64,000 nt of DNA from Mobula hypostoma (taxonomy: Eukaryota): positions 151,530,001 to 151,594,000 of the forward strand of contig NC_086097.1 in assembly GCF_963921235.1 (NCBI RefSeq), read 5' to 3'. This document shows positions 18,401 through 40,000 of the stretch, piece after piece. The position numbers were made by a program, and so were the translations under genes. Positions within the stretch are counted from its first letter, which is position 1. Each line of letters opens with the position of its first letter. Below the pieces are notes generated by a model. That model ran no database searches and was not told the origin of the DNA. It saw nothing but the letters and a program-made list of their open reading frames with translations.

Positions 18401-19299
18401 AATGGTGATACGTTCAGTGTAACTGTGTATCTGTAAAACTTTTCCGGAACTTCTACTTAATGCAGAAAATGTTCTTCAGTCTGATCAATCTAACCTTCAG
18501 ATGTTTTCACAGTTCCTGAAGAAATAGAGGTTTTGGTTTCTGCCAAAAAAATAGTAGTTTTAATCAAATATTAAGTTTTAACTCAAATTAATTAAACTAA
18601 GTTCCTAACCTAGGGAAAAACAAATTTGTACAATATTTTACAAAGTAATTTGTTCATGAGACTCTATATTTTACATTACAAAGATATTGTTTAAAAATTA
18701 TTGACATGAAATTCTCTGCACTTTGCAATTTAGTCCAAACTGTAATTCTTCAATATCACTGTAGTTTCTTGAAATCATGGCTTACGTTTTACTATTAGGT
18801 GGTGTGCTGAGAGAATATTATTTCATTGTTATTTGCTTAAAGTGATAGATCTTTGTTGTTCTCATCTTAAGATCTGGCAAAAGGATTTATTGTTGAAGTT
18901 AGCAAATTAGCAACATTCCAGTATAATGAACTACTTAAATGAAATATAAAATAAATTATATATTTAAAGAATGTGGATTCTAAAACCTTTTTATTTTGGT
19001 TTATGATCTTCAAATTAATAGCACACTAAATTAAAGGTGATCACCTGTCTTAAGCCATAAACTAATGCTTAAGCCAGAAAGTCTAACTTGCTGAATTTGA
19101 ATTTCACTCTTTAAGGCTATCGATTTCTTCAGAATAGCCAGCCTTTATGATGCATGGTTAACTATTAACTGGTTCTTGTGCTAATCATGCTATCTACACA
19201 TGAATTGTAAAACTGTGGTTGAGAAGTTTGCTTATTACCATCTGCTGGGGGAGCTCAGCAGGTCAGGCAGCAGTTATTGGGTGGGAGGTTTTAGACTGC

Positions 19300-20050
19300 A
19301 CTGAAGTAACTTTAACTGGGCATAAAAATGATAAATGGAATTTAATGCAGAGAACTGTGAGGTAATATTTCTGGGGGAGGACAAACAGATGAAAGAATGA
19401 TAAATGGCAGGAGTATAGGGAAGCAGAAGGAACTAGGAGTGCATGTTCAGAGATCCTTGAAAGTAGCAAGATACTGAGATAAGAAAATTAAAAAGGTTTG
19501 CCTAAATTAGCCCAGGCATAGAGCATAGGAGCAGAGAAATAGTACTGGAATTGTTTAAAACACTTAATAGACCTTAAAAAATCATTGGTTACTGTCTGAT
19601 CACCTGTGAGAAATATGTGATCACACTAGAGAAGATGCTGAGGAAACTTTCAGATTTTGCTATAGATGGAGCTTTATAATTAATGAGAGTGAAGTTTTCT
19701 TCCTTGGAACTGCAGGAAGGTTTATTGAGGTTTAGGCTAAGTAAACAGGAAGGGCTTGTTTCTCTTCACAAAAGGATTACTGACAAAAAATGTCTTATTT
19801 AATTGGTAAAGGGATGGGAATGGAATTGAAAGATACTTTTTCAGCTTAAGTGTACTGACAATCTGGAACTTGCTGCCTGAAAGGATAGTGGAGGCAGAAT
19901 CGATCATTACATTTAAGTATGTACCTGAAAACATTTGAAGAGTACAAAGCAATGAACTGAGCTGAGGATTGGGAGCAACCCAAATAGCTCCATTTGCTTC
20001 ACATGGACTTGATGGGCCAAATGATCTTTGTCTTTGATGAAAGTTTCAAT
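19300..20050 (+). mobile_element. Highly degraded CR1 3' fragment
   Basis: atggaatttaatgcagag.., ctggaacttgctgcctgaaaggatagtggaggcag.., gatgggccaaatg tail motifs. Confidence 0.6.
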
Positions 20051-20455
20051 GATTATGAAACATTTAACCATATACATGATAGTTCACAAACTTCCATCAG
20101 GCTGAGGTATTGTGACAGCAAATTTAATAAACAGTGCATTGTAACTTTAACCTAGGAGTTGCTTACCATTCCACTTTTCATATTAAATAACAATTCTCAA
20201 TAATTTAACTCTTATGGTGAAAGAGTCCATTTAAAATCTGGAAATTATACCAGATTTTGTAGAATCATTAGAAAATTTTAAAAATTAATTTTGGTTATGA
20301 TGCCACTTTTGAAAGCCAATTAAAATATCTGATATACAATACAGTTTCTGATAGAAGAGTATGGTTTTAAATTTTATAATGTGAACTCTTATTATTCTGG
20401 GTTTGGCTGCTCTAATGTAGATTTTTATTTTGTATGTGTGTAACATTTCTAATAG

Positions 20456-20556
20456 GTCAGGAAGAGTGGACGAATTCCAACTCTCGGATGAAAGCTCCTC
20501 CAACAAGAGCACCTAAAGGAGCATACAGAGAGCATCCCTATGCACCAAGATACTGA
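20456..20556 (+). CDS. KHDRBS3: Terminal coding exon of a STAR/Sam68-family KH-domain RNA-binding protein, best match KHDRBS3 (SLM2/T-STAR)
   Basis: Acceptor ...taacatttctaatag| at 20455, phase-1 exon reading (G)QEEWTNSNSRMKAPPTRAPKGAYREHPYAPRY-TGA. This matches the Sam68-family C-terminus (KAPP..KGAYREHPY PY-NLS), and GQEEWTNS is the SLM2-type start. Too short to appear in the ORF track. No upstream exon recognised in the window; paralog assignment is less certain than the family. Confidence 0.85.
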
Positions 20557-21150
20557 TTTCACCATCTACTCTGTGAAATACAATCATCAGTTAGCTGTTT
20601 CTGCAGTGATGTACGCTGTTAAAAGTAATTGGTTATTTTATATAAAAGTTCTTTTTTTCCTAAATATAACAGATCTGTTTAATCAGTTCTGAATTCTTGT
20701 ATGAAGTCCTTTGGATGGAGGAATTATTTGACTTTGGGAAGGAGGTGGGTGGGAAATCTTTGATCTTGTTACGTGCTTTGTTGGAAACAAGTAAACAGGA
20801 CTAACGTTTTTAAGTTTAACTAGTCTTTAAAAAATCTATTACCAAACTAGGTTTGATAATGTAGATCACTTAAAATGTAAAGCAAGATTCAGTTGATAGC
20901 AATGTTTTTTCCATTTTGCTTTTAGTTATTGTTAAAACTTAGTTTAAGTTTGGTTTGAATTTAAGTTTAAGCTTGTGTTAGAGCGCTATCCCTTGTAAAC
21001 TTTTACTTAAACAACAGTAAACTCCAAATGCCAAGTAAAGTTGTATTCTTTTGTATCTGAAGTCTCCAGATATTCTGTAGTGTTAAGATCAAAGACATTG
21101 ACTATTCTTGCTTGATACAAATAAAGTTTTGAGAGAAAAAAAAACAAACT
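20557..21150 (+). other. Proximal 3' UTR of the KHDRBS gene
   Basis: AT-rich, TE-free sequence after the stop; AATAAA at 21120-21125 followed by a GU-rich stretch (ctttgctgtgtgtg). Confidence 0.65.
21120..21125 (+). terminator. Candidate proximal polyadenylation signal
   Basis: AATAAA with downstream GU-rich element; further AATAAA at 21204-21209 and 21894-21899 (the latter followed by a U-run). Confidence 0.55.
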
Positions 21151-22042
21151 TTGCTGTGTGTGACATATCAGTAACATTGATATATTTTCTTATAACACCA
21201 AATAATAAATCCACAAAAATCTTTTAAACAGGGAAAGCATACTTATGTATTTATAAAATCTTCTTTAAAAAAAGTTTGTCTTGAGAGGTCTATACAGAAA
21301 TATACCTGAGTGATGTCTTAAAACACAAAAAAGTCCATATTGTTGCCCTTTGCAAATACACTACTGAATAATGAATTTATATGAAGAATGTGATCAGCAT
21401 TTCATCTTGTCTAAGCATTTTTTCACTAGTGCACTTTGGAATTTTTATGAGAATTACCTAAATGAATCCTCCGCTGGAAGCAATTAAAGCTTTTTAGAGG
21501 CAAACAGACTTGACTAATGTGCCATTCGTCAGAGGCAGTGGATGTGTAACCCTTAAAAGGTCTTCAGTTCCAAAGGTAAATGAATCAAGTAGATTTTAAT
21601 ATCACTTAATTTACCTTTAACATTTAAAACCAGTAAACGCTAAAAGAAAGCAAGGTTGTAAAGTTATTAGAGTAAAAAAAAACTATAGAAAAGGTTCAAG
21701 TACTTCTAAACTCCTAACAATTATAAATCGATCTTGTAATTGTGTAGAGACTAAACTTTATAACTGCAAACTAAGCAGTAGCTGATCTCTTAAATTCTAT
21801 CCTGTTAAACAAAGTGTAAAAACCACATAACCTTTGTCTATAATTGTCATAGTTAGCCTCAACTGCTTAATGTTTGATTTTGTTTTGAATCAGAATAAAT
21901 TCACTCTAAACAATGTTTTTTTTTGTAGCAGTGCATGTATTTATTTTTATAAGGCTTGACTATTTTTTGAAATAATTTCATTCTGGTTGTAATTGATGTT
22001 GTAATATATTTTGTGTTTCACATTTTTTCCCTCCACTTACAG

Positions 22043-22104
22043 GATCTTTTTCTCACATTCCTGACCAAATGGGAATTAAAATGGTCCTCGAATTGGACAT
22101 TATG
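22043..22104 (+). other. Candidate 62-nt non-coding exon downstream of the stop codon
   Basis: Acceptor ttttttccctccacttacag|G and donor ATG|GTAGGT, both close to consensus, in TE-free sequence. Confidence 0.55.
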
Positions 22105-23769
22105 GTAGGTGTTTATAATAGTTTTATTTTTTGAATTCTTGCGTAGTTAGCAGTTCCCTCTTCAGTACTACTCATGACCTTGTCCAGTACTCCATAATAA
22201 AATTTTCCCCATTGTTCTTGAAAACTCAAACATTTGTACAAGCATGCAGTGGCATAAATATGAGGTAACTTGCATCTCCATGGAAAGAGCCTTTCATTTT
22301 AAAATCTGACAGTAACTGCAACCGCCACAACTAAAACTCATCCTGCGATTCCATAGAATTTCAACACATTTTACTGGGATAGGGACAATTGAGATGATTT
22401 CAATCACATCACTACCAAATGACAAACAAGAATACATCTTCCAACAGAAATCAATTGAATATTGAGGATAATTGTAATGTCATTCTTAGTTGCAATTAAA
22501 CTAGCACAAAATATTCATTATTCTAACATATTGTTCATAATATGAAGGAATAGTTTCTCTTTAAGTGTCTACTTACTGAATATTAGAGATATATTAATAC
22601 CTCCACCAGGTGCTTTAGTTACAGATTTCACTCTTCATGGAAATCTATGGTAATGCACCAATAAATGGGAAGATAGTCAAGCTACTCTCTTGCACTGATC
22701 AGTTTTCAAAGACTTGGTCCGCAATTTATAAATGTCATATTAGCTGATGTTTGTTGTATTTTAAGGCTTATCCCTGCAGAAGTTAGAAAGGGGATAAAGT
22801 CAACAGTAATTCATGTCTGTGTATCATACTTCCCTGAGTAAGGACTTCATCCTACTGTATCTTGTATGATTGGTATTATTCAGATTATTTCCATTATCAT
22901 CTTAAAAAAAAAATGAACTACATAGCAATGTTGTTCACGATGCACCTGAAATAAGTGAAAGTTTGTAGCTGGGTTTTAATAGTGCCATATCAGAAGGTTT
23001 CAGGACTTGAGTATTAACTGGATTAATATTCCACTTCAGTACTGAAGTAGTCTTGATTTTTCAAACTCTTAATTTTAAAATCTCATTTGTTTGCTTGTTT
23101 ATGTGAATATAAAGAAAGTAGGGGACTCAACTGGTGCCCCAGGGTGACCAGTCCCCTTTTTTGCAAATACTTTAGTATGTGATGATGATAATATATGAAA
23201 ATTTTTCCCCTTTGGCGCTTTCATGTGCTGGTTGTACCTTCCAATTTAGTGTTAACCGTTTTATAAATTTGCTTGCTAAAAGTTGTCCATTTTATTATTA
23301 CAGACCATTTTTTTTTAATCCTTATTCCCTTCTCTTCCAATATTTACTTTGGAAGAGCATTAATATATCCAAATGCCATTTTGAAGTGTATTGCCTCTGG
23401 GATTCATGTACGTCAGCTGCATTGAAAACATAGAGTTGTATGACTTTCTTCACCATTTTCTATTAAATATAAACCCTATTAACTTTTTGAGCACCTCAGT
23501 CTGAGGACCCCTTCATTTCTTTTTGGAGTCGGGGATTATAACTTAAGTGTGCTAGTAGCTAGCAGTTCACTGTACTGTAGTTAATTATTTTTCTGGCAAT
23601 TATCCAGATATGTTTTTGCTATCATTTCAGCAATCCTTTATTTCCTGCCATGTTTCCTTTAATAATGCCTTGACTGTAGTTGTGGACAATCATCATTATT
23701 TAATGTCATTTCCTTCCTTGGTTATTTTTTATTACTATTCTACCATTACAAGAGCCTTTGTTGGCTCTG

Positions 23770-24155
23770 GGTCTTTACTCGCTGGAGTTTAGCATGACAG
23801 GGGATCTCATTGAAACTTACTGAATGCAGTGGACATGCAGAGAATGTTTTCACTGGTGGAAGAGTGAAGGACCAGAGAGCACAATCAAAGGACATCCCTT
23901 TAGTACAGAGGTGATGAGGAATTTTTTTAGAGGGTGGTGAATCTGTGAAGTTCATTTCCAGAGGCAACTATGGAGGCCAAGTAATTGGGCATATTTAAAG
24001 TGGAGGGTGATAAGTTCTTGATTAATAAGTGCATCTAAGGTTGCGGGGAGAAAGCAGGAGAATTGGACTGAGAGAAAATTTGTCATCTATGAATGGATGG
24101 TGGAGCAGACTCAATGGGTTGAACAGCCTAATTCTGCTCCTATGTCTTATAGTCG
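23770..24155 (+). mobile_element. CR1 3' end fragment
   Basis: gggatctcattgaaact.., agggtggtgaatctgtg.., tail cctaattctgctcctatgtcttat. Confidence 0.75.
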
Positions 24156-24999
24156 TCTTTTCCATAGATGAATGAAATAATAAATGTCTTGGTTGGGGTA
24201 ACAGATACTGACCATAGTCTGGCAGGCAAGAGGGGGTGGAATGTGGTGGAAAAGGGAATTCAGGGAAGCTTTGTCCTCTGCTTTATTACCATTTCACAAA
24301 TGTCTTCTCCATTTTAATTTTAATGGGCCAGGGATTCCTGTGAATTAGTTGAGTTGTTGTACTTTTTCAAAAATGCTCTCAGAATATCCATAAGACATTT
24401 TCTTTGATCGTCTGGAGCTTGAAATTGAGCATCCCCTTTAGGAGTCAAGTGTTTGACGTGCAGCCTGTCCTTCAGAGCTATCAAATGTAACCACCATCTC
24501 GATTCTAAAGGTGTTGGCTAAAGAGAGAATATTGCCAATCATTTGCCTATCCTGTCAATGGATATGAATGATTTTGCCCACCCAAGGCCTGTCTTGAAAT
24601 TACACCAAATGGGTGTCATTTCTCCAATACTTTGAGATTACATCTCACAGAAGCACATAGTCAGTTATCATTACTCTCTGATGGATGAGGTTTGAAATTT
24701 TGATCTTTTCCTCAGATGACTAAAAGCTATGCTGACACATTGAAAGAAATGGTAAACTTCATTATTGATGTTTGTCTTCCTAGGGAAAGAATTTAACAAA
24801 CCTCTTTGTTATACTAAAACAATGTTTTATTTGGTCCATTGTATTGTATATAATTTCATTTATTTTATATATTGCTGTACAATAGAATCGCTCACAGTAG
24901 AGGCATTATTTCCTCCGTACCCTGCACTCATCATAAAGCAGAAATTTGCAGTGCATTTGAAGTATAAGTTCAGCATGTACAAACCTCATTGTCCATCTT

Positions 25000-26480
25000 A
25001 ACGGGTTCTAAAAGAGGTAGCATTAGAGATTGTGGTGACATTAGAAATGATCTTTCAAAAACCATTGGACTCTGCCATAGTGCCAGAGGACCGGAAGATT
25101 GCAAATGTCGCTCCATTCTTTAAGAAAGGAGGAAGGCAGAAGAAAGGAAATTATAGACCAGTTAGCCTGACATCAGTGGTTGGGAAGATGTTGGAGTCAA
25201 GTGTTAAGGATGAGGTGATGGCATACTTGGTGACACAGGATAAGATATTACAAAGTCAGTATGGTTTCCTTCAGGGAAAATCCTGCCTGGCAAACCTGTT
25301 GGAATTCTTTGAGGAGCTTAAAAGTAGGATAGATAAAGGGGATGCAGTGGATGTTGTATATTTTGACTTGCAGAAGGCCTTTGTCAAGGTGCCACACATG
25401 AGGTTGCTTACTAAGTTAAGAGCCCATGATATTACAGGGAAGTTATTAACATGGGCAGAACATTGGCTGATTGGTAGGAGACAGTGAGTGGGAATAAAAG
25501 GATCCTTTTCTGGTTGGTGCCAGTGACTAGTGGTGTTCCACAGGGGTCGGTGTTGGGACCACTTCTTTTTATGCTGTATAGAAATGATTTCGATGATGGA
25601 ATATATGGCTTTGTTGCCAAGTTTGCAGATGAAACGAAGATTGGTAGATGGGCAGGTAGTGTTGAGGAAACAAGTAGGATGTAGAAGGACTGAGACAGAT
25701 TAGGAGAATGGGCAAGAAAGTGGCAAATGAAATACAATGTTGGAAAATGTATGGGCATGCACTTTAGTAGTAGAATAAATGTGTGGACTATTTTCTAAAC
25801 AGGGAGAAAATCCAAAAATCTGAGATGCCAAGGGACTTGAAAGTCCTTGTGCAGAACACCCTAAAGGTTAACTTGAAGAATGAGTTGGTGGTGAGAAAGG
25901 CAAATGCCATGTTGGCATTCATTTCAAGAGGTCTAGAAGACAAGAGCAAGGATATGATGCTCAGGCTTTTTAAGGCACTGGTGAGGCCTTACCTTGAGTA
26001 TTGTAAACAGTTTTGGGCTCCTCGTCTTAGAAAAGTTGTGCTGGCATTGGAGAGGGTCCAGAGGAGTTTCACAAGGATGATCCAAGAATGAAAGGGTTAT
26101 CTCATTGAAACCTTCCGAATGTTGAAAGTCCTAGACAGAGTAGATGTGATGAGGATGTTTCCCATGGTGGGAGAGTCTAGGACAAGAGAGCACAGCCTCA
26201 GGATGGAGGAGCGCCCTTTCAAAACAGAAATACAGAGAAATTTCATTATCCAAAGGGTGGTGAATTTGTGGAATTTGTTGCCACATGCAGCTGTGGAGGC
26301 CAGGTTGTTGGATGTATTTAAGGCAGATATTGATAGATTCTTGATTGGATATGGCTTCAAAAGTTATGGGGAGAAGGCTGGGAACTGGGGTTGAGGAGGA
26401 GATGAAAAGGATCAGCCATGATTGAATGGTGGAGTAGACTCAGTGGGCCAAATGACCTCCTCCTGTTCCTATTTCTTATG
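25000..26480 (+). mobile_element. 5'-truncated CR1 LINE, RT pseudogene
   Basis: ORFs 25032-25487 (GNYRPVSLTSVVGK..QYGF..DVVYFDLQKAF), 25484-25684 (SGVPQGSVLGP..FADETK), 25783-26394; frameshifts and stops; tail tcctatttcttatg. Confidence 0.93.
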
Positions 26481-27080
26481 TTTTTATAAGTGTTAATGGA
26501 ATTAAGAAATATGCTTTTCAATTGGACTTTGTGTTTTGGAGAAAGAAGGTAGCTGAATACCAGGCAGGTCAGAATGCATCAGAAGCACCCATCTGCCTGT
26601 ATCCCCTGTTCTGTACTTCACTGCCTTGGGACTTCCCTTTCTGGCTATGACTGTATTTTGTTAACTGTGTGACTAGAAAACAAGATGCAGAACAATGCCT
26701 TTGATTGTAACAACTAGTTGCATCTTCGATTATTCTCCTGCTGCTTTCATAACAGACTTGGTTAAGATTCTGGTTTAGACTTCAGTGCATTACTACTTTT
26801 ATTTTTGGGCCCTCTTTCTCAGATTATACTAATGTTGATGCATCTTGAATTACCATGCTGATACCAAAATTAAAAGATTTGAGGTATTACAAAAGCAGAT
26901 TGCATGGATTATGTTTGTACTCCCTTGACAATGGTGGGTTACAAAATTATCTGTGTTAAACAATTAAAAGATTTGAATGCACAGGTAGAAACTGTCTTTT
27001 CTGCTACTGAGTCTGGGACAAAAGGTTTATAATAAAATTAGATTAAGGCTGAACATCAATGTTATATAGGATTTTTTTAA

Positions 27081-27707
27081 GCATTTATAGCGAGAGGATT
27101 CGAGTACAGGAGCAGGGAGGTACTACTGCAGTTGTACAAGGCCTTGGTGAGACCACACCTGGAGTATTGTGTGCAGTTTTGGTCCCCTAATCTGAGGAAA
27201 GACATCCTTGCCATAGAGGGAGTACAAAGGAGGTTCACCAGATTGATTCCTGGGATGGCAGGACTTTCATATGAAGAAAGACTGGATGAACTGGGCTTGT
27301 ACTCATTGGAATTTAGAAGATTGAGGGGGGATCTGATTGAAACGTATAAAATCCTAAAGGGATTGGACAGGCTAGATGCAGGAAGATTGTTCCCGATGTT
27401 GGGGAAGTCCAGAACGAGGGGTCACAGTTTGAGGATAAAGGGGAAGCCTTTTAGGACCGAGATTAGGAAAAACTTCTTCACACAGAGAGTGGTGAATCTG
27501 TGGAATTCTCTGCCACAGGAAACAGCTGAGGCCAGTTCATTGGCTATATTTAAGAGGGAGTTAGATATGGCCCTTGTGGCTATGGGGATCAGGGGGTATG
27601 GAGGGAAGGCTGGTGCAGGATTCTGAGTTGGATGATCATAATAAATGGCGGTGCAGGCTCGAAGGGCCGAATGGCCTACTCCTGCACCTATTTTCTATGT
27701 TTCTATG
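27081..27707 (+). mobile_element. Young 5'-truncated CR1 3' end
   Basis: ORF 27132-27626 (LVRPHLEYCVQFWSP..TRGHSLRI..FFTQRVVNLWNSLP); tail ttttctatgtttctatg; very similar to 39340-39976. Confidence 0.93.
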
Positions 27708-27853
27708 CTTAACATAAAAGGTAGTGAATTTTGAAGTTTCTTCTCAAAGTGCATCAGAAATTTTGATTCTGCACAAAGCGCAGAATCAGATATCGCTGTG
27801 ATGATTGTATGCTCTAGTATCAATTGGTTGGCGACAATAAAGTATAAAGTTAT

Positions 27854-30800
27854 TGTCTGTGCCATGTGAGTATAGGAATAGAGTGAGGTGGAGGGTTAAT
27901 GCGTGGCTGAGGGATTGGAGCAGAGGACAGGGATTCAGATTTCTAGATCTTTGGGACCTCATTTGGGGCAGCAGTGACATGTACAAAAAAGACAGGTTGC
28001 ACTTGAATCCGAGGGGGACCAATATCCTGGCAGGGAGGCTAGCTAAGGCTATTGGGGTGAGTTTAAACTAGAATCACTTGGGGGATGGGAACCGAACTGG
28101 AGATGGAAGAAGGGGTGGTTGGCTCACAAATTGAGAAACAAAACAGATGAACTTCAAATGTGGATCAGTACTTGGAACTATGATGATGTGGCCATTACAG
28201 AGACTTGGATGGCTCAGGGGCAGGAATGACTACTTAACGTGCCAGGCTTTAGATGTTTCAGAAAGGACAGGGAGGGAGGCAAAAAAGGTGGGGACATTGA
28301 ACTGCAGATCAGAGATGGCGTCACAGCTGCGAAAAAGGAGGAAGTCATGGAGGGATTGTCTACTGAGTCTCTGTGGGTGGAAGTTTGGAACAGGAAGGAG
28401 TCAATAACTCTACTGGGTGTTTTTTATAGACCACCCAGTAGTAACAGGTTCATCAAGGAGCAGGTGAGGAGACAGATTCTGGAAAGATGCAATAATAACA
28501 GGGTTGTCATAGTGGGAGATTTTAATTTCAGCAATATTGATTGGCATCTCCCTAGAGCAAGGATTTAGATGGGGTGGAGTTTTTTAGGTATGTTCAGGAA
28601 GGTTTCCTGACACAATATGTAGATAAGCCCACAAGAGGAGAGGCTATACTTGATCTGGTATTAGGAAATAAATCTGGTCAGGTGTCATTTCTCTCAATTG
28701 GAGTGCATTTTGGAGATGGTGATCACAATTCTATCTCCTTTACCATAGCATTGGAGAAGGATAGGAACAGACAAGTTAGGAAAGCATTTAATTGGAGTAA
28801 GAGGAAATATGAAGCTATCAGGCAGGAATTTGGAAGCATAACTTGGGAACAGATATTCTCAGGGAAATGGATGACAGAAATGTAGCAAATGTTCAGGGGA
28901 TATTTGCATGGTGTTCTGCATAGGTACATTCCAATAAGGCAGGGAAAAGATGGTATGGTACAGGAACTGTGGTGTACGAAGGCTGTTGTAAATCTAGTCA
29001 AGAAGTAAAGCTTATGAAAGGTTCAGAAAAACTAGGTAATAATAGAGATATAGAAAATTATAAAGCGAGGAGGAAGGAGCTTAAGAATGAAATTAGGAGA
29101 GCCAGAAGGGGCCAAGAGAAGGCCTTGGTGAGCAGGATTAAGGAAACCCCCAAAGCATTCTTGTTGTTCGTCCATCGTCGTCGATGAAGACCACGACACC
29201 ATTAGTCATAATGATGGTGTCGAGACTAGCGCATGATTTGGATTTAAGTGAAGTTCCCAATTCCCATCTGGATCCAGTGGCAAGACAAGAGTTGAGACGA
29301 CTGGAAATGGGACTGGGCACAGTGGATGACCAGGACGTCTTCTGTGTCATGTCATGCTCTACACATTCCACAACGCTTGCAGAGACTGCCCTCTTGAACG
29401 TTGGACCTTCCATTGGTCTCGCCCGCTCAATCCACCGGAGTCTGTTTTCACATGTTGGGATAGACAACTCCCTATCTCACCGAGGGTTTGAGACCTGTCG
29501 TCTACCCTCACCTGGTTTAGCCGGCTTGTCGAAGCTGTTGCCCAGGGTGTAGCTGCTGTCGCATGCAAACAGCTACGGGGAGCCACAGGTGAGGGCTGAG
29601 TGCCAGGAGGGGACCAAAGGTGGACTAACTGCCTTGAAAAGCACGTGACATGTTCCCCCACCAGAGGTGCTACCCCTCTCTGACACCCCATACACCCCAA
29701 GGCATTCTACAAGTATGTGAAGAGCAAGAGGATAAGACGTGAGAGAATAGGACCAATCAAATGTAACAGTAGAAAAGTGTGTATGGAACCGGAGGCGATA
29801 GCGGAGGTGTTCACTATGGAAAAGGACCTTGACGATTGTAGGGATGACTTACAGCAGACTGAAAAGTTTGACCATATAGACATTAAGAAAGAGGATGTGC
29901 TGGAGCTCTTGGAAAGCATCAAATTGGGTATGTCCCCGAGGCCAAACGAGATATACCCCAGGGCCTCTGGCAATGATCTTTGCATCATCGGTGAGGATGG
30001 GAGAGGTTCTGGAGGGTTGGAGTGTTGCAGATGTTGTTCCCTTATTCAAGAAAGGGAGTAGAGATAGCCCAGGAAATTATAGACCAGTGAGTCTTACTTC
30101 AGTGGTTGGTAAACTGATGGAGAAGATTCTGAGAGGCAGGATTTATGAATATTTGGAGAGGCGTAATATGATTGGGAATAGTCAGCATGGCTTTATCAAA
30201 GGCAGCTGAGAAGTGGCAGATGGAGTTCAACCCAGATAAGTGTGAGGTGGTTCATTTTGGTAGGTCAAATATGATGGCAGAATATATTATTAATGGTAAG
30301 ACTCTTGGCCGTGTGCAGGAACAGCGGGATCTTGGGGTGGGTGTCCATAGGACACTCAAAGCTGCTGCACAGGTTGACTGTGTGGTTAAGAAGACCTGCA
30401 GTGCATTGATTTTCATCAACTGTGGGATTGAGTTCAAGAGCGGAGAGTTAATGTTACAGCCATATAGAACCCTGGTCAGACCCCACATGGAGTACTGTGC
30501 TCAGTTCTGGTCATCTCACTACTGGAAGGATGTGGAAGCTATAGAAAGTGTGCAGAGAAGATTTACAAGGATGTTGCCTGGCTTGGGGTGCATTCCTTAC
30601 GTGAATAGGTTGAGTGAACTTGGTTTTTTCTCCTTGGAGCGACAGAGGATGAGAGGTGACCTGATAGAGGTATATAAGATGATGAGAGACATTGATCGTG
30701 TGGATAGTCAGAGGCTTTTGGCTAGGGCTGAAATGGCTAACACAAGAGGATACAGTTTTAAGATGCTTGGAAGTAGATACAGAGGGGATGTCAGGGGTAA

Positions 30801-31030
30801 GTTTTTTACGCAGAGAGTGGTGAGTGCGTGGAATGAGCTGCCAGCGACTGTGGTGGAGGTGGATACAACAGGGTCTATTAAGAGGCTCCTGGATAGGTAC
30901 ATGGAGCTTAGAAAAAGAGAGGGCTATGGGTAACCCTAGGTGATTTCTAAAGTACATGTTCGGCACAGCATTGTGGGCTGAAGGGCCTGTATTGTGCTGT
31001 AGGTTTTCTATGTATCTATGTTCCTATGAG
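27854..31030 (+). mobile_element. CR1 LINE: ORF1 SGNH-esterase end, APE endonuclease, RT with internal deletion near 30205; interrupted at 29161-29694
   Basis: 27853-28071 (WLRDWSRGQGFRFLD..DRLHLNPRG), 28239-28885 (YRPP, VGDFN, LDLVL, GDHN), 29895-30209, 30172-30933. Sequence jumps from QHGFIKG straight to AEKWQMEFN; tail ttctatgt repeats. Confidence 0.93.
29161..29694 (-). mobile_element. Non-autonomous RTE-derived short retroelement nested in CR1
   Basis: 13-bp TSD ccccaaagcattc (29148-29160) / ccccaaggcattc (29695-29707); minus-strand 3' end ..gacgaacaacaa, a (CAA)n-type tail; no RT ORF. Confidence 0.75.
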
Positions 31031-31310
31031 GGATATTGAGGATGTGGTCAGAAAAAACGGATGTAGGGGATAGGGTGCAGGCATCTGGAATCATGTGAAT
31101 TCCTGGAATAGTATATGGGCTGCTGGGGTATACCTGAGGAATTCAGAGGGGCATAAAAGGGGCATAAGATACCTTTGGGTGAGAAGATCAAGGAGAATCC
31201 TAAGAGATTTTATAAGTATATTAAAGGAAAAAGAGTTAACTGGAGAGAGACTAGGACCTAAAGACTAAAGTAGATATCTTTGTTTAGAGCCACAAATCAT
31301 GGGCAAAGCC

Positions 31311-32495
31311 ATAGAACTGTAGAAAAGTATAACACAGAATCAGGCCCTATGGTCCACCTAGTCCATGCCGAAACCACTTAAGCTGCCTGCTCCCATCAAC
31401 CTGCACTGGGACAATAGCCCTCCATATCCCTACTATTGCATTGAATTGACTTTATTACTTATATCCTTTATATACATGAGTAAAAATCTTTACATTACGT
31501 CTCTGTCTAAATGTGCAATGTGCAATTTATAGTCATTTGTAATGAATAGTATGTACAACAGGATAGCCAATATAACATAGAAATACAGTTAAGTCAGCAT
31601 GAATTAAGCAGTCTGATGGCCTAGTAGAAGAAGCTGTTCCAGAACCTGTTGGTCCTGGCTTTTATGCTGCAGTATCGTTTCCCGGATGGTAGAAGCTGGA
31701 ACAGATTGTGGTTGGGGTAACACGGGTCCCCAATGATCCTTCAGGGCCTTTTTACACACCTGTCTTTGTAAGTGCCTGAATAGTGGGAAATTCACATCTA
31801 CGGATGCGCTGGGCTGTCCACACCACTCTGTGTAAAGTCCTGTGATTGAGGGAAGTACAGTTCCCATACCAGTCAGGATGCTCTCAATTTTGCCCCTATA
31901 GAAAGTTCTAAGGATCTGGGGACCCATATCAAACTTCTGCAGCCATCTGAGGTGAAAGAGGCACTATTGTGTCTTTTTCACCACACAGCCAGTATGTACA
32001 GACCACATGAGATCCTTGGTGACATTTGTGCCAAGGAATTTAAAGCTGTTCACCCTCGCAACCCCAGATCCATTGATGTCAATAGGGGTTAGCCTGTCTC
32101 CATTCCTCCTGTAGTCCACAACCAGCTCCTTTGTTTTTGCGACATTGAAGGAGAGGCTGTTTTCTTGACACCTCTGTGCCAGGGTGATGACTTCCTCTGT
32201 GTGGGCTGCCACATTATTATTTGAGATTTGGTCAATCAGTTTAGTGTCATCAGCAAATCCAAACTTTGCTTAAATGTTGAAATTGAGCTTGCAGCTTGTG
32301 CTGGTAGCTCAGTCCACACTCTCATCTCATTGCTCTGAATGAAGAAGTTTCGCCTCATGTTCCCCTTATCTTTTCACCCTTCACCCTTAACCCTTAACCC
32401 ATGATCTCTGGTTGCAGTCCCACCCAACCTCAGTGGAAAAAGCCTGCTTACATTTACCCCCTCTATACCCCACATAATTTTACATATCTCTATGT
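31311..32495 (-). mobile_element. CR1 3'-tail fragment (31311-31435 and 32256-32495) split by a Rex1-like LINE
   Basis: Similar to 1985-2330; ORF 32374-32649 ends in SRLFPLRLGGTATRDHGLRVKG. Confidence 0.7.
31437..32255 (-). mobile_element. Rex1/L2-type LINE 3' fragment
   Basis: ORFs 31964-32212 (NVAKTKELVVDYRR..VNSFKFLG) and 31604-31927 (LRTFYRGKIESILT); ADDT at the 5' break; 3' end aataaagtcaattcaa. Confidence 0.85.
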
Positions 32496-34273
32496 TATGA
32501 ATGTACCTCTGTACTCCTACCTCCAAGTCATGCTTCCCCTCTTTACTTTGGTAAAAGACCACACGAAGACTTAGGAAATTGAGATAGTTAATAGTCTTGA
32601 GATTAGTCTGTGTTATAGAGGAAGTGCTGGATGTAATAAAATGTACCAAAGTAGATAAGTCTCCAGCACCTGATCCAGTCTATTAAAGAACATTATAGAA
32701 GGTAGAAAATGCAGGAGTTCTAACTGCAATTTTAGCTTCATCATTAGTGACAGGTGAAGACTGGAAGGTGGCTCATGATTTGCCTTTATTTAAAAAGGAT
32801 TGTAAAGAAAAACCTGGGAACTAATGGCCAATAATCCAAATATCTATGGTAGGTAAGTTACAAGAAGGAATTCAGAGGGATAAGATGTACAAGAATTTGG
32901 AAAGAGAGAGGTTCATAAGGATAATCAGCACAGCTTTGTGTGCAGGAGATTAAGTCTTTAGAACTCGAATGAGTTCTTTAGAAGTAACCAAGCAGCTCAA
33001 TGAGGGCAGGGCTGCAGACAGTTTATATGGATTTCAGTAAGGCCTCTGATAAAAGTTGTTTGGCATGGTAGAATGCTGGGGAACATTGTACAACAGTGGG
33101 ACCTACGTGTATATGAATGTGGTTCCCTGGAAGTGACATCACAGGTAGATACAATGCCTTTGCCATGCTGGCCATCATCAGTCTAGGCATTCAGTATAGA
33201 ACTTGGCATGTTATGCTACAGTTGTTAGTTGCATTTGGAATATTGTGTTCATTTTTGGTCACCCTGCTTTAAAAAAATTCCATTAAGTTAGAAAGAGTGC
33301 TGGACTGATTTACGAGGATGTTGCCGGGACTCATGGGACTGAGTATGGAGGGGATATTGAGCAGGCTGTGACTTTATTCAATGGAGCCTAGAAATATAAG
33401 GGGTATATTACAGAGAGATATAACATCATGTGGAGCAGAATTAGGGTGAGTATGCACACAATGTGTTCCAAGTTTGGAGAACCAACAACTAAAGGACATA
33501 GATATAAAGTGAGAGGAGAGATTTAATAGGAACCTGTGGAGCAACTTTTTCTACTGGGAGTGGTCACCTGCCAGAGGAAGTGGTTGGGTACATTAGCAAC
33601 ATTTAAAAAGACTCGGGCAGGTGAAAATGGTTTTGAGGGATGTGTATCAAATTAATTGAGATAGGGCTAGTTAGGAATCTTGGTCGGCATGGATGAAATA
33701 GGCCAAAAAACGCTGTTACCGTTTTATATATCTCACTGACTATATATAGAGGGATAAAAGAAACTGTTTATGTTTCCACAAATGCTACCTAAATTGCCAA
33801 GTGTATACAGTGTTTTCTGCTTTTATATGAAAATATGAACAATGTTAGCCTTTACAAAGATTTCTAGCAGCCTTTAATGTATACTCTAGTCCATGAAAAA
33901 GTTTATAAAGAAACTTTGGGGTTGCTGAATGTATATTTTTCAAATTCAAAATATTCACAATACCTCAGTAACTAAAGCAGAGCACTCTTGCATAGAGTAA
34001 AATCTAGATAATCAGGTATTGATGGGCCTGTGGAAAACAATGCTGTATTGCAAGACTTTCAGTATTGATCATCTTCAACAAGAGAATGTCCTGGGACTTA
34101 CCATTTACATTGACTAGTATTAGCATTGCAAATTTCTCACCATCAAAACCCTGTAGGGTCATATTGACCAGAATCGTATGCCAGCTAGCTGAATATATGT
34201 AGAGGCCAAATGAGCAGGTCAGGAACCTCATGAGTATTCTGATGTAAGAGGTTTAATTCTTGACACCCTAAAG

Positions 34274-34352
34274 CAGGGGTTCACAACTTTTTTATGCCAT
34301 GGGCCTTTACCAGTAATCAAGAGATCTGTGGACCCCAGGTTGGGAACCCCTG
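34274..34352. mobile_element. 79-bp hAT-Charlie-like MITE
   Basis: TIRs caggggttc / gaacccctg; 8-bp TSD ccctaaag / acctaaag. Confidence 0.8.
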
Positions 34353-34399
34353 ACCTAAAGCCTTTCCACCATCTTCAAAACATCAATATTGCAAGAGAA

Positions 34400-34680
34400 T
34401 CATAGAGAGATACAGGCCATTCAGCCCAGCATACGTGCACCATCTATCATCAACCCATTTGCACTGAAACCTGTTCTCCCTACTTACTATCAACTCTTCA
34501 GGTGCTGTCTTTCACCTACACTGCACTTTGCAGTGACCAATTAAACTACCAACTCACAAATCTTAGGTACAATGGAGCACTCGGAGGAAATCCATGTGGT
34601 CAGAGGGAGAATGTGCAAACTCCATCTTGATAGTGCCCAAGATCAGGATTGGATACAGTCTCTGACGTTGTTATCGGAAT
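34400..34680 (-). mobile_element. Degraded HE1-like SINE (tRNA-derived head, CR1 tail)
   Basis: caggccattcagccc tail and ggaggaaatccatgtggtcagagggagaatgtgcaaactcc core; related plus-strand copy near 53470-53670. Confidence 0.6.
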
Positions 34681-35961
34681 ACATTGCATTGAATGCAGCT
34701 GAACAAATGTCAAAAATCTCAAAACCAACCAGGACAAGGATTTCATTTTTCATCCTAAACATTCATTCCTTCCACCCCTGTTGCTCCAAGGCCGCAGTCT
34801 ATGCAATCAGAAAACGCACTGGAACTGTTCATCAAGCTAGCTCAGCAGCAACACAAAAACCTACAACCATAAAGCATAGGTTCTTTCCAAATTATGAGTC
34901 ATCCTAATATGGCTATGCAGGGGTTTTTCCCATCTAAATCTTGAAACTTGTCAACAGCTACATGAGGTTATATTCACCAACAGGAATGAGGTGCTTCAAG
35001 AAGATGGCCCACCTTTTCCTTCTTAAGGACAATTAATAAAAAAGAAATGTTTGAAGCACCTGCATCCTGAAATTGACAAAGTTGTGTATGTGTGACTTAT
35101 AAATCTGAACACAGTAGAAAATGTCAATGTTCCATGTTCTGCAAAAAAACACAAAATACTTTGTGTTACACACATGAAAGTTGCTTGAATTTCCAGCATC
35201 TGCAGAATTCCTGTTGAATACTTTGTGTTTTCATTTCTAAGCCAGTTGTTAGTAAATGCACAACTACTGTGCATAGTTGTGTCATGCATTCGTTGGTTGT
35301 GTTACTGGTCAATAATATCCATGGAAGCCTCTTGACTAAAGAGAACATGGTTGGACTTTGATTTTGTACAATTATGTTAAATGGAAAATAGTAAACTTGT
35401 GTCTCATTTTATATTTCTCCCCTTTTACTTCCAGTGAAGACAAAATTTAAGGCAGAGTTCAGATTCAATTATCTGAAAAAAATAAGATCTGTCAGCAACC
35501 TTGAAGTTTATTGTCAAATCAACTGAGCTTGTTTTCTGATGACTTTTGTCTTCCCTGTTTGATCTAGTCTGTATGTGTCTACAAATTACACTAATGTACT
35601 GAATTGGCTCTTAACTTCCTGAAGTGGCAAAGCATGCCTCTACTTGAAAGCCCTTCACTGGTAAATGCCAGCAAATATAAATTACTTTTTTTTTAAATTC
35701 CTTAATCCAGTGATACTGTAATACATGGATAAATAGTTTAATTTGGGTTATAATGACAAATAAAATTCAAGAATTGAATAGAGTCTGAAAATGATGGCAA
35801 TGTTTTGCAGTTATCTCAAAGGTCAAAATAAATTTATTATCAAAGTATGTACTGTAGATGTTACCATATATGACCCTGGGATTCATTTTCTTGCCAGTAT
35901 TCACAGTAGGACAAAGAAACAATATACTTGTAATAAAATTCTTTATTTGTCCTTTTAACAG

Positions 35962-36370
35962 GAGACTGTGCGTTTGACTTGTCACCGATTAAATGAAGAT
36001 GACCAAAAAGAGCAATCAACAAAATGACAGTCATATAGAATAAAAATCGAACATAATTGTTGATTCCATGTATAAACTGGTTGTAAAATTGTAAATATCT
36101 GTAAATTTAGTTTTTACCAAAGTAGTTGTGTTTTGCATTGTTTATTTGAATAATAGCTGCATTCTCACTTTTCTATTTTAACATAAAATATTTTTCATGT
36201 AATGAACTTTTTTAAAACGAAGTTAAATAGCTCATTGATTTCTAAAATATTCTGGCTTCCTTTGATCCAGATCCAGAAATTTATCATGTTTGTGTTCCTG
36301 TGTTTAACTTTGATAAATAAACAAGAAGCAAAACTGTATTGTATCTGTAATAAAATGTGGAAAATAATGT
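35962..36370 (+). other. Candidate distal terminal exon
   Basis: Acceptor ctttatttgtccttttaacag|G; 3'UTR-like composition with TGTAAATA at 36090; AATAAA at 36316 and 36349. Confidence 0.35.
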
Positions 36371-37061
36371 AGTGAATTTGTTAACTCAGAACTAAGACAA
36401 TTGGAATTATGCACACAATCTTTATTTCTGTGCCAGTGCAAAATCACTGAACTATTTTCTCCTGTAGCAATCTTGCCATCAAATACAATGCTGGAGATGC
36501 TTTAAATATGAGGTAAAATGATGGAAATACTCAGTAGATATGGCATCTATGAAGAAAACAAAGCCATGAACGATTCAGGTCAATGACCTTTCATCATAAT
36601 CTGAAAAAGTTACATATGCAGGATATTTTTCCCTCTGATATGAATTCCATACTACATTTGGAAAACTTAGGCCATAATACAAGGCATAAATTCAGATTAT
36701 ATTAGTTGTGGAATATCTCTTGAATGACAGCAAGATTGTGACTCTAGAAAATTAGATTGTAAATTCCTCAGATTATGGAAGGAGTGGTCAACCACTGGAG
36801 CCCAACCTTAGTTTTTCTTTTGTCCAGTGATTACTACTTTCTTTCTACAAGTTATTGAAATCCATTAATTTAAAATTATAATGTTCTCATTTCAGTTTGC
36901 CATTTCTGTTTCCTTTTGATGTTGTTAGTTTACTTTCCACCATGGTATTTATGTAAGCAGTTAGCTTACATAAATCCTAAACCCTGCAATGTTTTGTTCA
37001 GGCCTCTGGCATGCATTCTTCTCAAGCAGTGTTACTTTGCTTCTTGGCATTTTTGTGCAAC

Positions 37062-40000
37062 GTTCAAGGTAAAATTTATTATCAGAGTACATGCATATCA
37101 CCACACACACAACCCTGAGATTCTTTTTCTGCGGGCATACTTAGCAAATCTATAGAACAGTAACCAAACTGTAAACAAACTGCAAATACAGATAAAACAA
37201 TAATAGCAATAAAGATTAGCATAAAATAATGAGATACAGTTTTTAAATGAATATAGTTACCCCTTTTATTCAAGAGCCTGATGGTTGAGGAGTAGTAACT
37301 ACTCTTGAACCTGGTGGTACAAGTCCTGAGGCACTTGTACCTTCTACCTAATGGCAGCAGTGAGAAAAGAGCATGGTCTAGGTGGTGAGGATCTTTGATG
37401 ATAGATGCTGCTTTTCTACGGCAACGTTTCAATCAGGTGTGCTAAATGGTTGTGGGTAAAACCTTTCCAATGTACTGGGCCAAATCCACAACCTGTTATC
37501 TGATTTTCTGTTCAAAGACATCAGTATTCCCAGCCAGGCTGTAATGAATCCAGTCAGCACACTTCCCACCCTACATCTATAGAAGTTTGCCGAGGTTGTT
37601 GACGTAATCTCTACAAACTCCTGAGGAAGCAGAGGTGCTGTTGTGCTTTCTTTGCTATTATATTTATATGATGGGTCCAGGACAGGTCGTCTGAGACAAT
37701 GATACTCATGAATCTAAAGTTACTGATCCTCTGATGATTACTGGATTATGGACCTTTGGTTTCCCTCTCCTGAAGTCCACTATCATTTCCTTCGTCTTAT
37801 TGATGTTGAGTGAGAGGTTATCGTTATTACACCACTCAACCAAATTTTCAATCTCCAGCGCCCCCCACCCCCCATATGCTGATTCATCACACCCTTTGAT
37901 ACAGCCCAGAACAGTGGTGTCATCAGCAAACTTGTACATTGTGTTGGAGCTGTCCTTAGCCACACAGTCAAGGGTGTAAAACGAGTAGAGCAGGGGACTA
38001 AGTGCACATCGCTGCAGTGCTTCTGTGCTGATGGAGATTACGGAGGAGATGTTTTTGTCAATCAGAACTGACTGGGGTCTACAAGTGAGGAAACCTAGGA
38101 TCCAATTGCACAAGGTGGTATGGAGCCCCAGGTCTGACTGTAAAAGCTTTTATAGATAGGTGAAAAGAAAAAGATTCGTTAAGACAAATGTAGGTCCCCT
38201 ACAGACAGAAACAGGTGAATTGATTATGGGGAGCAAGGACATGGCAGACCAATTGAATAACTACTTTGGTTCTGTCTTCACTAAGGAGGACATAAATAAT
38301 CTTCCGGAAATGGTAGGGGATAGAGGGTCCAGTGAGATGAAGGAACTGAGGGAAATACATGTTAGTATGGAAGTGGTGTTAGGTAAATTGAAGGGATTAA
38401 AGGCAGATAAATCCCCAGGGCCAGATGGTCTGCATCCCAGAGTGCTTAAGGAAATAGCCCAAGAAATAGTGGATGCATTAGTGATAATTTTTCAAAACTC
38501 TTTAGATTCTGGACTAGTTCCTGAGGATTGGAGGGTGGCTAATGTAACCCTGCATTTTAAAAAAGGAGGGAGAGAGAAACTGGGGAATTATAGACCGGTT
38601 AGCCTAACATCGGTGGTGGGGAAAATGTTAGAGTCAGTTATCAAAGATGTGATAACAGCACATTTGGAAAGCAGTGAAATCATCGGACAAAGTCAGCATG
38701 GATTTGTGAAAGGAAAATCATGTCTGATGAATCTCGTAGAATTTTCTGAGGATGTAACTAGTAGAGTGGATAGGGGAGAACCAGTGGATGTGGTATATTT
38801 GGATTTTCAAAAGGCTTTTGACAAGGTACCACACAGGAGATTAGTGTGCAAACTTAAAGCACACGATATTGGGGGCAAGGTATTGATGTGGATAGAGAAT
38901 TGGTTGGCAGACAGGAAGCAAAGAGAGGGAATAAACGGGACCTTTTCAGAATGGCAGGCAGTGACTAGTGGGGTACCGCAAGGCTCAGTGCTGGGACCCA
39001 AGTTGTTTACAATATATATTAATGACTTAGAGGAGGGAATTAAATGCAGCATCTCCAAGTCTGCAGATGGAAGCTGGGCGGCAGTGTTAGCTGTGAGGAG
39101 GATGCAGGGTGACTTGGATAGGTTAGGTGAGTGGGCAAATTCATGGCAGATGCAATTTAATATGGATAAATGTGAGGTTATCCACTTTGGTGGCAAGAAC
39201 AGGAAAACAGATTATTATCTGACTGGTGGCCGATTAGGAAAAGGGGAGGTGCAATGAGACCTGGGTGTCATCATACACCAGTCATTGAAAGTGGGCATGC
39301 AGGTACAGCAGGCGGTGAAAAAGGCGAATGGTATGCTGGCATTCATAGCAAGAGGATTTGAGAACAGGAGCAGGGAGGTATTACTGCAGTTGTGCAAGGC
39401 CTTGGTGAGATCACACCTGGAGTATTGTGTGCAGTTTTGGTCCCCTAATCTGAGGAAAGACATCCCTGCCATAGAGGGAATACAAAGAAGGTTCACCAGA
39501 TTGATTCCTGGGATGGCAGGACTTTCATATGAAGAAAGACTGGATCGACTAGGCTTATATGTTCGTTGGAATTTAGAAGATTGAGGGGAGATCTTATTGA
39601 AATGTATAAAATCCTAAAGGGATTGGACAGGCTAGATGCAGGAAGATTGTTCCCGATGTTGGGGAAGTCCAGAACGAGGGGTCACAGTTTGAAGATAAAG
39701 GGAAAGCCTTTTAGGACTGAGATTAAGAAAAACTTCTTCACACAGAGAGTGATGAATCCGTGGAATTCTCTGCCACAGGAAACAGTTGAGGCCAGTTCAT
39801 TGGCTATATTTAAGAGGGAGTTAGATATGGCCCTTGTGGCTAAAGGGATCAGGGAGTATGGAGTGAAGGCTGGTACAGGGTTCTGAGTTGGATGATCAGC
39901 CATGATCATACTGAATGGCAGTGCAGGCTGGAAGGGCGGAATGGCCTACTCCTGCACCTATTTTCTATGTTTCTATGTCTTGGATTTTACTGATTAGTTT

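What the first reader, a model, noticed from the sequence alone, without database searches (positions are those of the whole stretch)
20556..22110. Candidate splicing-NMD autoregulation cassette behind the KHDRBS3 stop codon
Seen: a donor-like AAA|GTAATT at 20624/20625, 68 nt past the TGA, and 1.4 kb later a cleanly bounded 62-nt exon (ttttttccctccacttacag|22043..22104|GTAGGT). The intervening DNA contains the AATAAA signals and no TE. Established: a junction more than ~50-55 nt after a stop triggers NMD, and mouse Slm1/Slm2/Sam68 levels are controlled by alternative splicing from the last coding exon to downstream non-coding exons coupled to NMD. Inference: splicing 20624->22043 would remove the poly(A) sites and make an NMD substrate, so this feedback loop may be conserved in a cartilaginous fish and date to the jawed-vertebrate ancestor.
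Basis: partly seen in the sequence, partly recalled or inferred. Interest (0 to 1): 0.8.

Follow-up and report, generated by a model that had tools for sequence, protein, structure and literature searches.

The report
Ray SLM2 gene's spliced self-limiting tail
In this cartilaginous fish (likely a ray), the brain splicing-factor gene KHDRBS3/SLM2 really does splice two extra exons onto its message after the stop codon, the same layout that lets mammalian SLM2 limit its own level by mRNA decay, so that known feedback loop likely reaches back to the first jawed vertebrates, though decay and feedback are untested here.

Summary
One 477-nt contig of an RNA-like run joins 20624 to the 62-nt exon 22043-22104 (GT..AG joint shown). 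The same contig continues into a third, terminal exon at 35962-36347, which ends 26 nt after an AATAAA. A second organism uses both borders of the 62-nt exon and joins it to 35962. Four of 6 RNA-like runs show only the unspliced end. The gene is KHDRBS3 (last exon 31-33/33 identical to shark and ray proteins). Junctions lie 68 and 130 nt past the stop, so NMD is predicted. The layout matches the published SLM2 'alternative end 2' (exon 9 internal donor, exons 10 and 11) of human, mouse and chicken (PMC5199341). That paper already proposes that the loop predates the SLM2/Sam68 split, and zebrafish khdrbs1a is annotated similarly. What is new is direct evidence for KHDRBS3 in a cartilaginous fish. 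NMD, autoregulation, tissue and sequence homology to mammalian exons are untested. The scan has an unchecked similar note for an octopus KHDRBS. Verdict: real, a known system, range extension.

The parts
20456..20624 (+). KHDRBS3 last coding exon ('exon 9'), short form: coding end, TGA 20554-20556, and 68 nt of 3'UTR up to the internal donor
   Evidence: tblastn 32/33 to Mustelus KHDRBS3; 33/33 to three cluster members; loose ends before 20455 in all 4 runs, reading as the end of the previous exon in X1, X3 and X6
20622..20630 (+). Weak internal 5' splice site AAA|GTAATT; a UUAA/UAAA motif overlaps positions -6..-1
   Evidence: joint 20624->22043 GT..AG in X1, and the main X1 contig breaks at 20625; motif positions
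20625..22042 (+). Alternative 3'UTR intron (1418 nt), which is the ordinary 3'UTR when unspliced; 70% A+T, 57 UWAA motifs, no TE
21120..21125 (+). Main poly(A) signal of the productive mRNA ('end 1')
   Evidence: contigs of X3, X5, X10 and X11 end at 21135-21137; a genomic A-run starts there, so internal priming is not excluded
22043..22104 (+). 62-nt non-coding exon ('exon 10')
   Evidence: X1 477-nt contig, 0 differences; X6 91-nt contig starts at 22043 and leaves after 22105, 1 difference
22105..35961 (+). 13,857-nt intron, TE-rich from about 23,750; ends in ...GTCCTTTTAACAG
35962..36347 (+).
   Evidence: X6 loose end maps to 35963 with 1 mismatch, 0 expected by chance; X1 477-nt contig covers 35961-36347 with 0 differences
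36316..36321 (+). AATAAA, likely poly(A) signal of 'end 2', 26 nt before the contig end

Best explanation
This is the ray counterpart of the SLM2 (KHDRBS3) 'alternative end 2' cassette: a weak donor 68 nt after the stop is spliced to a 62-nt exon and on to a terminal exon 13.9 kb away, giving an mRNA with the normal protein-coding region that is predicted to be destroyed by nonsense-mediated decay and that likely lets SLM2 limit its own level. Shown: the gene, both splices, both 3' ends and the geometry (junctions 68 and 130 nt past the stop). Inferred from mammals: the nascent RNA either is cleaved after AATAAA 21120 (stable end 1) or, when U1 engages the weak donor, loses that signal with the intron. 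SLM2 (or a paralog) binding the UAAA/UUAA-rich intron would favour the second route as its level rises. The two exon-junction complexes left behind the stop would then recruit UPF1. Rough odds by step: splicing real 0.97, orthologous to the amniote cassette 0.9, NMD substrate 0.8, driven by SLM2 itself 0.7.
For:: joint 20624->22043 (GT..AG) in one X1 contig (477 nt, depth 18.8, 29 letters on the 5' side; 22043-22105 on record letters 386-448); a record of the same run, length, depth and strand covers 35961-36347 on letters 1-387 with 0 differences, and 29+62+386=477. X6 (another organism and study) starts at 22043 and continues into 35962; contigs of DNA run X22 pass unbroken over 20624, 22043-22104 and 35962; differences in X22 are 5/637 (20400-21035), 33/1368 (21174-22555) and 13/315 (35825-36138) against 175/2450 in five intron pieces (Fisher P 9e-13, 8e-11, 0.043). 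In X6 they are 5/653 in the exon against 10/156 in the upstream intron (P 7e-5); gene identity. PMC5199341: identical exon arrangement in human, mouse and chicken, induced by SLM2 and stabilised by cycloheximide. PMC7310861 S3 Table: human KHDRBS3 ENST00000521461 has its farthest 3'UTR intron 117 nt from the stop (130 here). PMC7310861 abstract and passages: EJC-dependent NMD operates in zebrafish.
Against: The 20624->22043 joint is seen in only 1 of 6 RNA-like runs and in one contig. X3 (same organism and study as X1), X5, X10 and X11 show no exon 10. In X6 the main contig runs unbroken through 20624 and no record shows what is joined to 22043. No NMD or SLM2 perturbation data exist for this fish, and tissues are not on record. 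UWAA density in the intron (57) is not above dinucleotide shuffles (49.5+/-6.0, P=0.12), and the stretch before the donor is not depleted beyond its composition. No sequence homology to mammalian exons 10/11 could be shown: the four published reverse primers match no better than chance. In X6 the spliced contig is deep (107 against 260), not obviously a decayed minority, although contig depth is a poor measure. PMC5199341 itself saw no consistent UPF1-knockdown stabilisation for SLM2, only for Sam68.
Confidence: 0.72

Rival explanations
1. The spliced form is a stable alternative 3' end that swaps a 580-nt AU-rich UTR for another UTR (changing localisation or translation) and largely escapes NMD.
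For: The isoform assembles without NMD inhibition in 2 of 6 runs, with contig depth 107 against 260 in X6. Exon 11 has its own AATAAA and some conservation (P 0.043). In HeLa only 60% of transcripts meeting the 50-nt rule rose significantly on NMD inhibition (10.1101/2020.07.01.183327, passage).
Against: Two junctions lie 68 and 130 nt past the stop. The human equivalent is stabilised by cycloheximide (PMC5199341). Mouse end 2 is also seen in untreated brain, so detectability does not exclude NMD. Depth was 18.8 against 298.6 in X1.
Confidence: 0.13
2. It is an NMD switch, but thrown mainly by another factor (Sam68, SLM1 or an unrelated AU-binding protein) and not by SLM2 itself.
For: Cross-regulation exists in the family: SLM2 controls the Sam68 and Slm1 ends (PMC11077083 passages). 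UWAA enrichment is not beyond composition.
Against: In mouse, Slm2 end 2 drops in Slm2 knockouts and does not change in Sam68 knockouts (PMC5199341; PMC11077083).
Confidence: 0.1
3. It is splicing noise or a lineage-specific cryptic exon that only resembles the amniote cassette.
For: The donor is weak. All organisms laid are close relatives (about 7% intron divergence). No alignment to mammals, sharks or chimaera was possible.
Against: Both exon borders and the 13.9-kb jump are used in two organisms. The region is 3-9 times less diverged than the neighbouring intron. The exon number and distances match human KHDRBS3 and zebrafish khdrbs1a.
Confidence: 0.05

Closest known systems
SLM2/T-STAR/KHDRBS3 'alternative end 2' autoregulation in human, mouse and chicken (Ehrmann et al. 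2016, PMC5199341; Cesari et al. 2024 as PMC11077083, author name recalled)
   Same: Same gene; internal donor in the last coding exon after the stop; two downstream non-coding exons with their own 3' end; competing unspliced end; AU/UWAA-rich intron; conserved region. Stop-to-last-junction distance is 130 nt here and 117 nt in human ENST00000521461.
   Different: Cartilaginous fish instead of amniote. NMD sensitivity, SLM2 dependence and brain/testis bias are shown there and untested here. Nucleotide homology of exons 10 and 11 is not established.
Sam68/KHDRBS1 alternative end 2 (PMC5199341; 10.1101/2020.07.01.183327 Fig 2C) and zebrafish khdrbs1a ENSDART00000125633 (PMC7310861 S3 Table)
   Same: Paralog with the same architecture. 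The zebrafish transcript has 11 exons and its farthest 3'UTR intron 121 nt past the stop (its Type '2' is undefined in the file; two introns is my inference).
   Different: Different paralog. The zebrafish entry is an annotation with no functional test, and the table has no zebrafish khdrbs3 row.
Slm1/Khdrbs2 AS-NMD controlled by SLM2 (Traunmueller et al. 2014; not held; known only from citing passages)
   Same: Third paralog, with NMD through splicing to downstream exons.
   Different: Cross-regulation by SLM2 instead of self-regulation.

Membership tests
SLM2/KHDRBS3 alternative end 2 AS-NMD cassette | Host gene is KHDRBS3 | tested here: met
   3 of 3 hits are named KHDRBS3 or 3-like. Of 17 proteins compared, 14 end in this exon at 31-33/33 identity and 3 have other C-termini. 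Paralogs were not compared directly, and only the last coding exon lies in the window.
SLM2/KHDRBS3 alternative end 2 AS-NMD cassette | Internal 5' splice site in the last coding exon, downstream of the stop, is used | tested here: met
   Joint 20624->22043 in X1; 1 of 6 RNA-like runs.
SLM2/KHDRBS3 alternative end 2 AS-NMD cassette | Two downstream non-coding exons (10, 11) with their own 3' end | tested here: met
   22043-22104 and 35962-36347; AATAAA 36316.
SLM2/KHDRBS3 alternative end 2 AS-NMD cassette | Competing unspliced end 1 with a poly(A) site inside the intron | tested here: met
   4 of 6 runs end at 21135-21137 behind AATAAA 21120; an A-run follows, so internal priming is not excluded.
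SLM2/KHDRBS3 alternative end 2 AS-NMD cassette | Junctions more than 50 nt past the stop | tested here: met
   68 and 130 nt.
SLM2/KHDRBS3 alternative end 2 AS-NMD cassette | Region under sequence constraint | tested here: met
   0.8% and 2.4% against 7.1% differences in DNA run X22; close relatives only.
SLM2/KHDRBS3 alternative end 2 AS-NMD cassette | Sequence homology of donor and exons 10/11 to the amniote elements | not testable with these tools
   No vertebrate genomes are held; published 20-mer primers gave chance-level matches.
SLM2/KHDRBS3 alternative end 2 AS-NMD cassette | Many UAAA/UUAA sites downstream, depleted just upstream of the donor | tested here: inconclusive
   40 per kb in the intron against 1 in 159 nt upstream (3 in 169 with the last 10 nt). 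Only 1 of 313 sliding windows reaches 57, but neither figure departs from dinucleotide shuffles.
SLM2/KHDRBS3 alternative end 2 AS-NMD cassette | Enriched in brain and testis | not testable with these tools
   Library and tissue are not on record for the runs.
SLM2/KHDRBS3 alternative end 2 AS-NMD cassette | Stabilised by NMD inhibition and induced by SLM2 protein | not testable with these tools
   Needs cells or a minigene.

The most novel reading that the evidence does not exclude
The 62-nt exon does double duty. Joined to the donor at 20624 it makes the NMD target. Joined directly to exon 8, skipping exon 9, it would be read in frame (62 = 2 + 20 codons, no stop), run 21 codons into exon 11 and stop in the last exon. 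That would give an NMD-proof SLM2 with a new tail of about 42 residues lacking the C-terminal RxHPY nuclear-import motif (motif role recalled). For: the phase fits, the frames are open, and the X6 contig begins exactly at 22043 with no intron cover before it, as if more than one upstream partner existed. Against: such frames are open by chance with P 0.25 x 0.17, a second frame of the exon is open too, no exon 8-10 joint was seen, and no protein with that peptide was found (a weak search).
Probability: 0.07. Interest if true: 0.55.

Novelty: new member of a known kind. Interest (0 to 1): 0.3.

Why it matters
It gives direct transcript evidence that the two-exon unproductive tail of SLM2 exists on the cartilaginous-fish side of the deepest split among jawed vertebrates, where published evidence for KHDRBS3 stopped at mammals and chicken. 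This supports, but does not overturn or go beyond, the 2016 proposal that the KHDRBS feedback loop is older than the gene triplication. It also supplies exact coordinates for a minigene test of whether the UWAA-driven switch works across species, and for finding the constrained cis-elements by alignment.

Tried and rejected
No own genome is held. Looking for upstream KHDRBS3 exons in the window found none; intron 8 exceeds 20 kb. Published mouse and human primers gave no match above chance (best 13-15 of 20 anywhere). The KHDRBS2/KHDRBS3 paralogous conserved element of PMC3595034 is not this cassette: its KHDRBS3 partner is listed as intergenic (supplementary file 1 could not be searched). Rfam over 19000-38000 gave 0 matches. 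UWAA enrichment is not beyond composition. No RNA holder is on record as RNA; I treat X1, X3, X5, X6, X10 and X11 as RNA because they show splice joints or ends at exon and poly(A) borders. X3, X5, X10 and X11 have no cover on exon 10, which is not proof of absence because contigs drop rare forms. The wide second laying was swamped by TE rows (479 difference rows, 1626 joints and 7791 loose ends hidden). So the 22104->35962 joint row and the state of the GT/AG letters in X22, X10 and X11 were not visible; the chain was rebuilt from record coordinates. A genomic deletion or processed copy as source of the joined form was rejected: X22 contigs run through all three borders, and the joint shown has GT..AG ends. 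A protein search with the exon-10 frame found nothing. A loose end after 21894 in X1 does not map to the window. MaxEntScan was not available, so a plain consensus count was used.

Full report
Observation. The interval has no self-repeat and single-copy depth in a DNA run. On sequence alone the case is weak. The donor matches 7 of 9 consensus positions, as do 162 of 3573 GT sites on the + strand, and 6 acceptor-donor pairs of this strength occur in the window.

The gene. The exon starting at 20456 encodes a C-terminus 32/33 identical to Mustelus KHDRBS3 and 31/33 to Scyliorhinus KHDRBS3-like. Of 17 proteins compared (15 of the 41 cluster members were listed, plus two other hits), 14 end in this exon at 31-33/33 and 3 have other C-termini. 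Three are identical, one of them named Mobula. That protein carries Qua1, KH and Sam68-YY domains. The loose end before 20455 in X1, read by hand, gives the same ten residues that precede this exon in the Mobula protein. The organism is therefore a cartilaginous fish, likely a ray. No other exon of the gene is in the window. I did not compare shark KHDRBS1 or KHDRBS2 directly.

Transcript evidence. Twenty-four runs hold the stretch, none on record as RNA. I laid 6 of the 18 RNA-like runs and 1 of the 6 large runs. In X1, which has no substitutions and one 1-base gap against the window in the non-repeat pieces shown, the main contig breaks at 20625. One 477-nt contig (depth 18.8) joins 20624 to 22043 with GT..AG ends, with 29 letters on the 5' side and 22043-22105 on record letters 386-448. 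In X6 (another organism and study) a 91-nt contig starts exactly at 22043, leaves the genome after 22105 and continues with letters that map once, with one mismatch, to 35963 (0 expected by chance). That site lies directly behind the acceptor ...CCTTTTAACAG|35962. Laying X1 on 20400-36500 showed a 477-nt record of the same depth and strand on 35961-36347, letters 1-387, with no differences. The three parts sum exactly: 29+62+386=477. The record ends 26 nt after AATAAA 36316. The joint row for 22104->35962 was hidden among 1626 rows cut from that table, so this link rests on record coordinates in X1 and on the loose end in X6. The 20624->22043 joint is thus seen in 1 of 6 runs and the exon 10-11 link in 2 of 6. 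X3 (same organism and study as X1), X5, X10 and X11 show only the unspliced form, ending at 21135-21137 behind AATAAA 21120; an A-run follows there, so internal priming is not excluded. In X6 no record shows what is joined to 22043, and its main contig passes 20624 unbroken. Contigs of the DNA-like run X22 pass unbroken over 20624, over 22043-22104 and over 35962.

Conservation. In X22, differences are 5/637 over 20400-21035, 33/1368 over 21174-22555 and 13/315 over 35825-36138. The five other pieces shown, all intronic, have 175/2450 (Fisher P 9e-13, 8e-11 and 0.043). Gaps were not counted, only 8 pieces were shown, and the 90% likeness filter makes the background a lower bound. In X6 the exon/UTR differs at 5/653 and the upstream intron at 10/156 (P 7e-5). 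The donor is unchanged in X1, X3, X5 and X6 (complete table). These are close relatives; sharks, chimaera and mammals could not be aligned (no genome held; published primers at chance level). The intron holds 57 UWAA motifs (40 per kb), a count reached by only 1 of 313 sliding windows (location not printed; it may overlap the intron itself). The 159 nt before the donor region hold 1. Neither figure departs from dinucleotide shuffles (49.5+/-6.0, P 0.12), so AU-richness explains them.

Mechanism. Shown: two alternative 3' ends that encode the same protein, one with junctions 68 and 130 nt past the stop. Inferred: the spliced form is an NMD substrate by the 50-nt rule (10.1101/2020.07.01.183327, passages), which operates through the EJC in zebrafish (PMC7310861, abstract and passages). 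Use of the weak donor likely competes with cleavage 500 nt downstream and is favoured by SLM2 binding UAAA/UUAA sites, giving negative feedback. Confidence in the whole chain is 0.72. The rivals are a stable alternative UTR (0.13), control by another factor (0.10) and lineage-specific noise (0.05). Contig depths (18.8 against 298.6 in X1; 107 against 260 in X6) are too crude to decide between these.

Comparison with what is known. Ehrmann et al. 2016 (PMC5199341; I read parts 1-4 of 6 of the main text, legend passages, and parts 1-2 of 4 of supplement 1) describe exactly this layout in human, mouse and chicken SLM2: an internal donor in exon 9 and non-coding exons 10 and 11. The spliced end is induced by SLM2, reduced in the knockout and stabilised by cycloheximide. 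They show the same for Sam68 and conclude that the pathway was likely present before the triplication, which PMC3636136 (passages) places just after the lamprey/jawed-vertebrate split. PMC11077083 (passages) confirms it and adds cross-regulation of Sam68 by SLM2. The S3 Table of PMC7310861 (7 khdrbs rows) lists human KHDRBS3 transcripts with distances of 50, 82, 117 and 4237 nt, and mouse Khdrbs3 with 544 nt. It also lists zebrafish khdrbs1a (11 exons, 121 nt) and khdrbs1b (206 nt), and no zebrafish khdrbs3. I found no paper reporting the cassette in cartilaginous fish (search listings; PMC5758493 passages have no shark or UTR mention). The library lacks most subscription papers, Traunmueller 2014 was not held, bioRxiv supplements were closed, and RefSeq transcript models of rays, which I could not see, may already include these exons. 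It works like, and by every feature testable here is filed under, the SLM2 alternative-end-2 cassette. The functional defining features (NMD, SLM2 dependence, tissue bias) and nucleotide homology remain untested.

Most novel reading. Exon 10 is stop-free in the phase that exon 8 would supply, and the frame continues 21 codons into exon 11. Skipping exon 9 would therefore give an NMD-proof isoform with a new tail. This is open by chance about 4% of the time, no such joint or protein was found, and I put it at 0.07.

Verdict. The event is real and now completely mapped, but it is a range extension of a published system whose antiquity was already proposed. Novelty: new member of a known kind. 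Interest 0.3. The scan's notes hold no look-alike of this DNA; one unreviewed note proposes a similar 3'UTR intron in an octopus KHDRBS, which I did not test.

Noticed in passing
window 21894: One X1 contig matches up to 21894 and then runs on for 255 or more unlike letters. These do not map to the window, and no GT donor follows in the genome. It may be a paralog's UTR, another locus or a chimeric contig.
   Followed up: partly
window 22043-22104 and 35962-36027: Exon 10 is open in two frames, one in phase with exon 8 and continuing 21 codons into exon 11; chance-level on its own.
   Followed up: partly
window 21213-22501: Low-depth (3-7) X1 contigs cover the distal intron and run past both borders of exon 10: unspliced read-through RNA or DNA carry-over.
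   Followed up: no
window 20300-20484: X6 has a 1081-nt contig (depth 16) running from intron 8 into exon 9: retained intron or pre-mRNA.
   Followed up: no
proteins P0011, P0015, P0006: Annotated shark/ray KHDRBS3 isoforms with other C-termini that replace exon 9; their tails give no convincing match in this window.
   Followed up: partly
window 23750-35900, 38160-39257, 5564-6733: High-copy repeats fill the second intron. A reverse-transcriptase frame lies at 38160-39254 (RVT_1, E 6e-30), and a frame with a weak GIY-YIG match (below cut-off; Penelope-like by recall) at 5564-6730.
   Followed up: no
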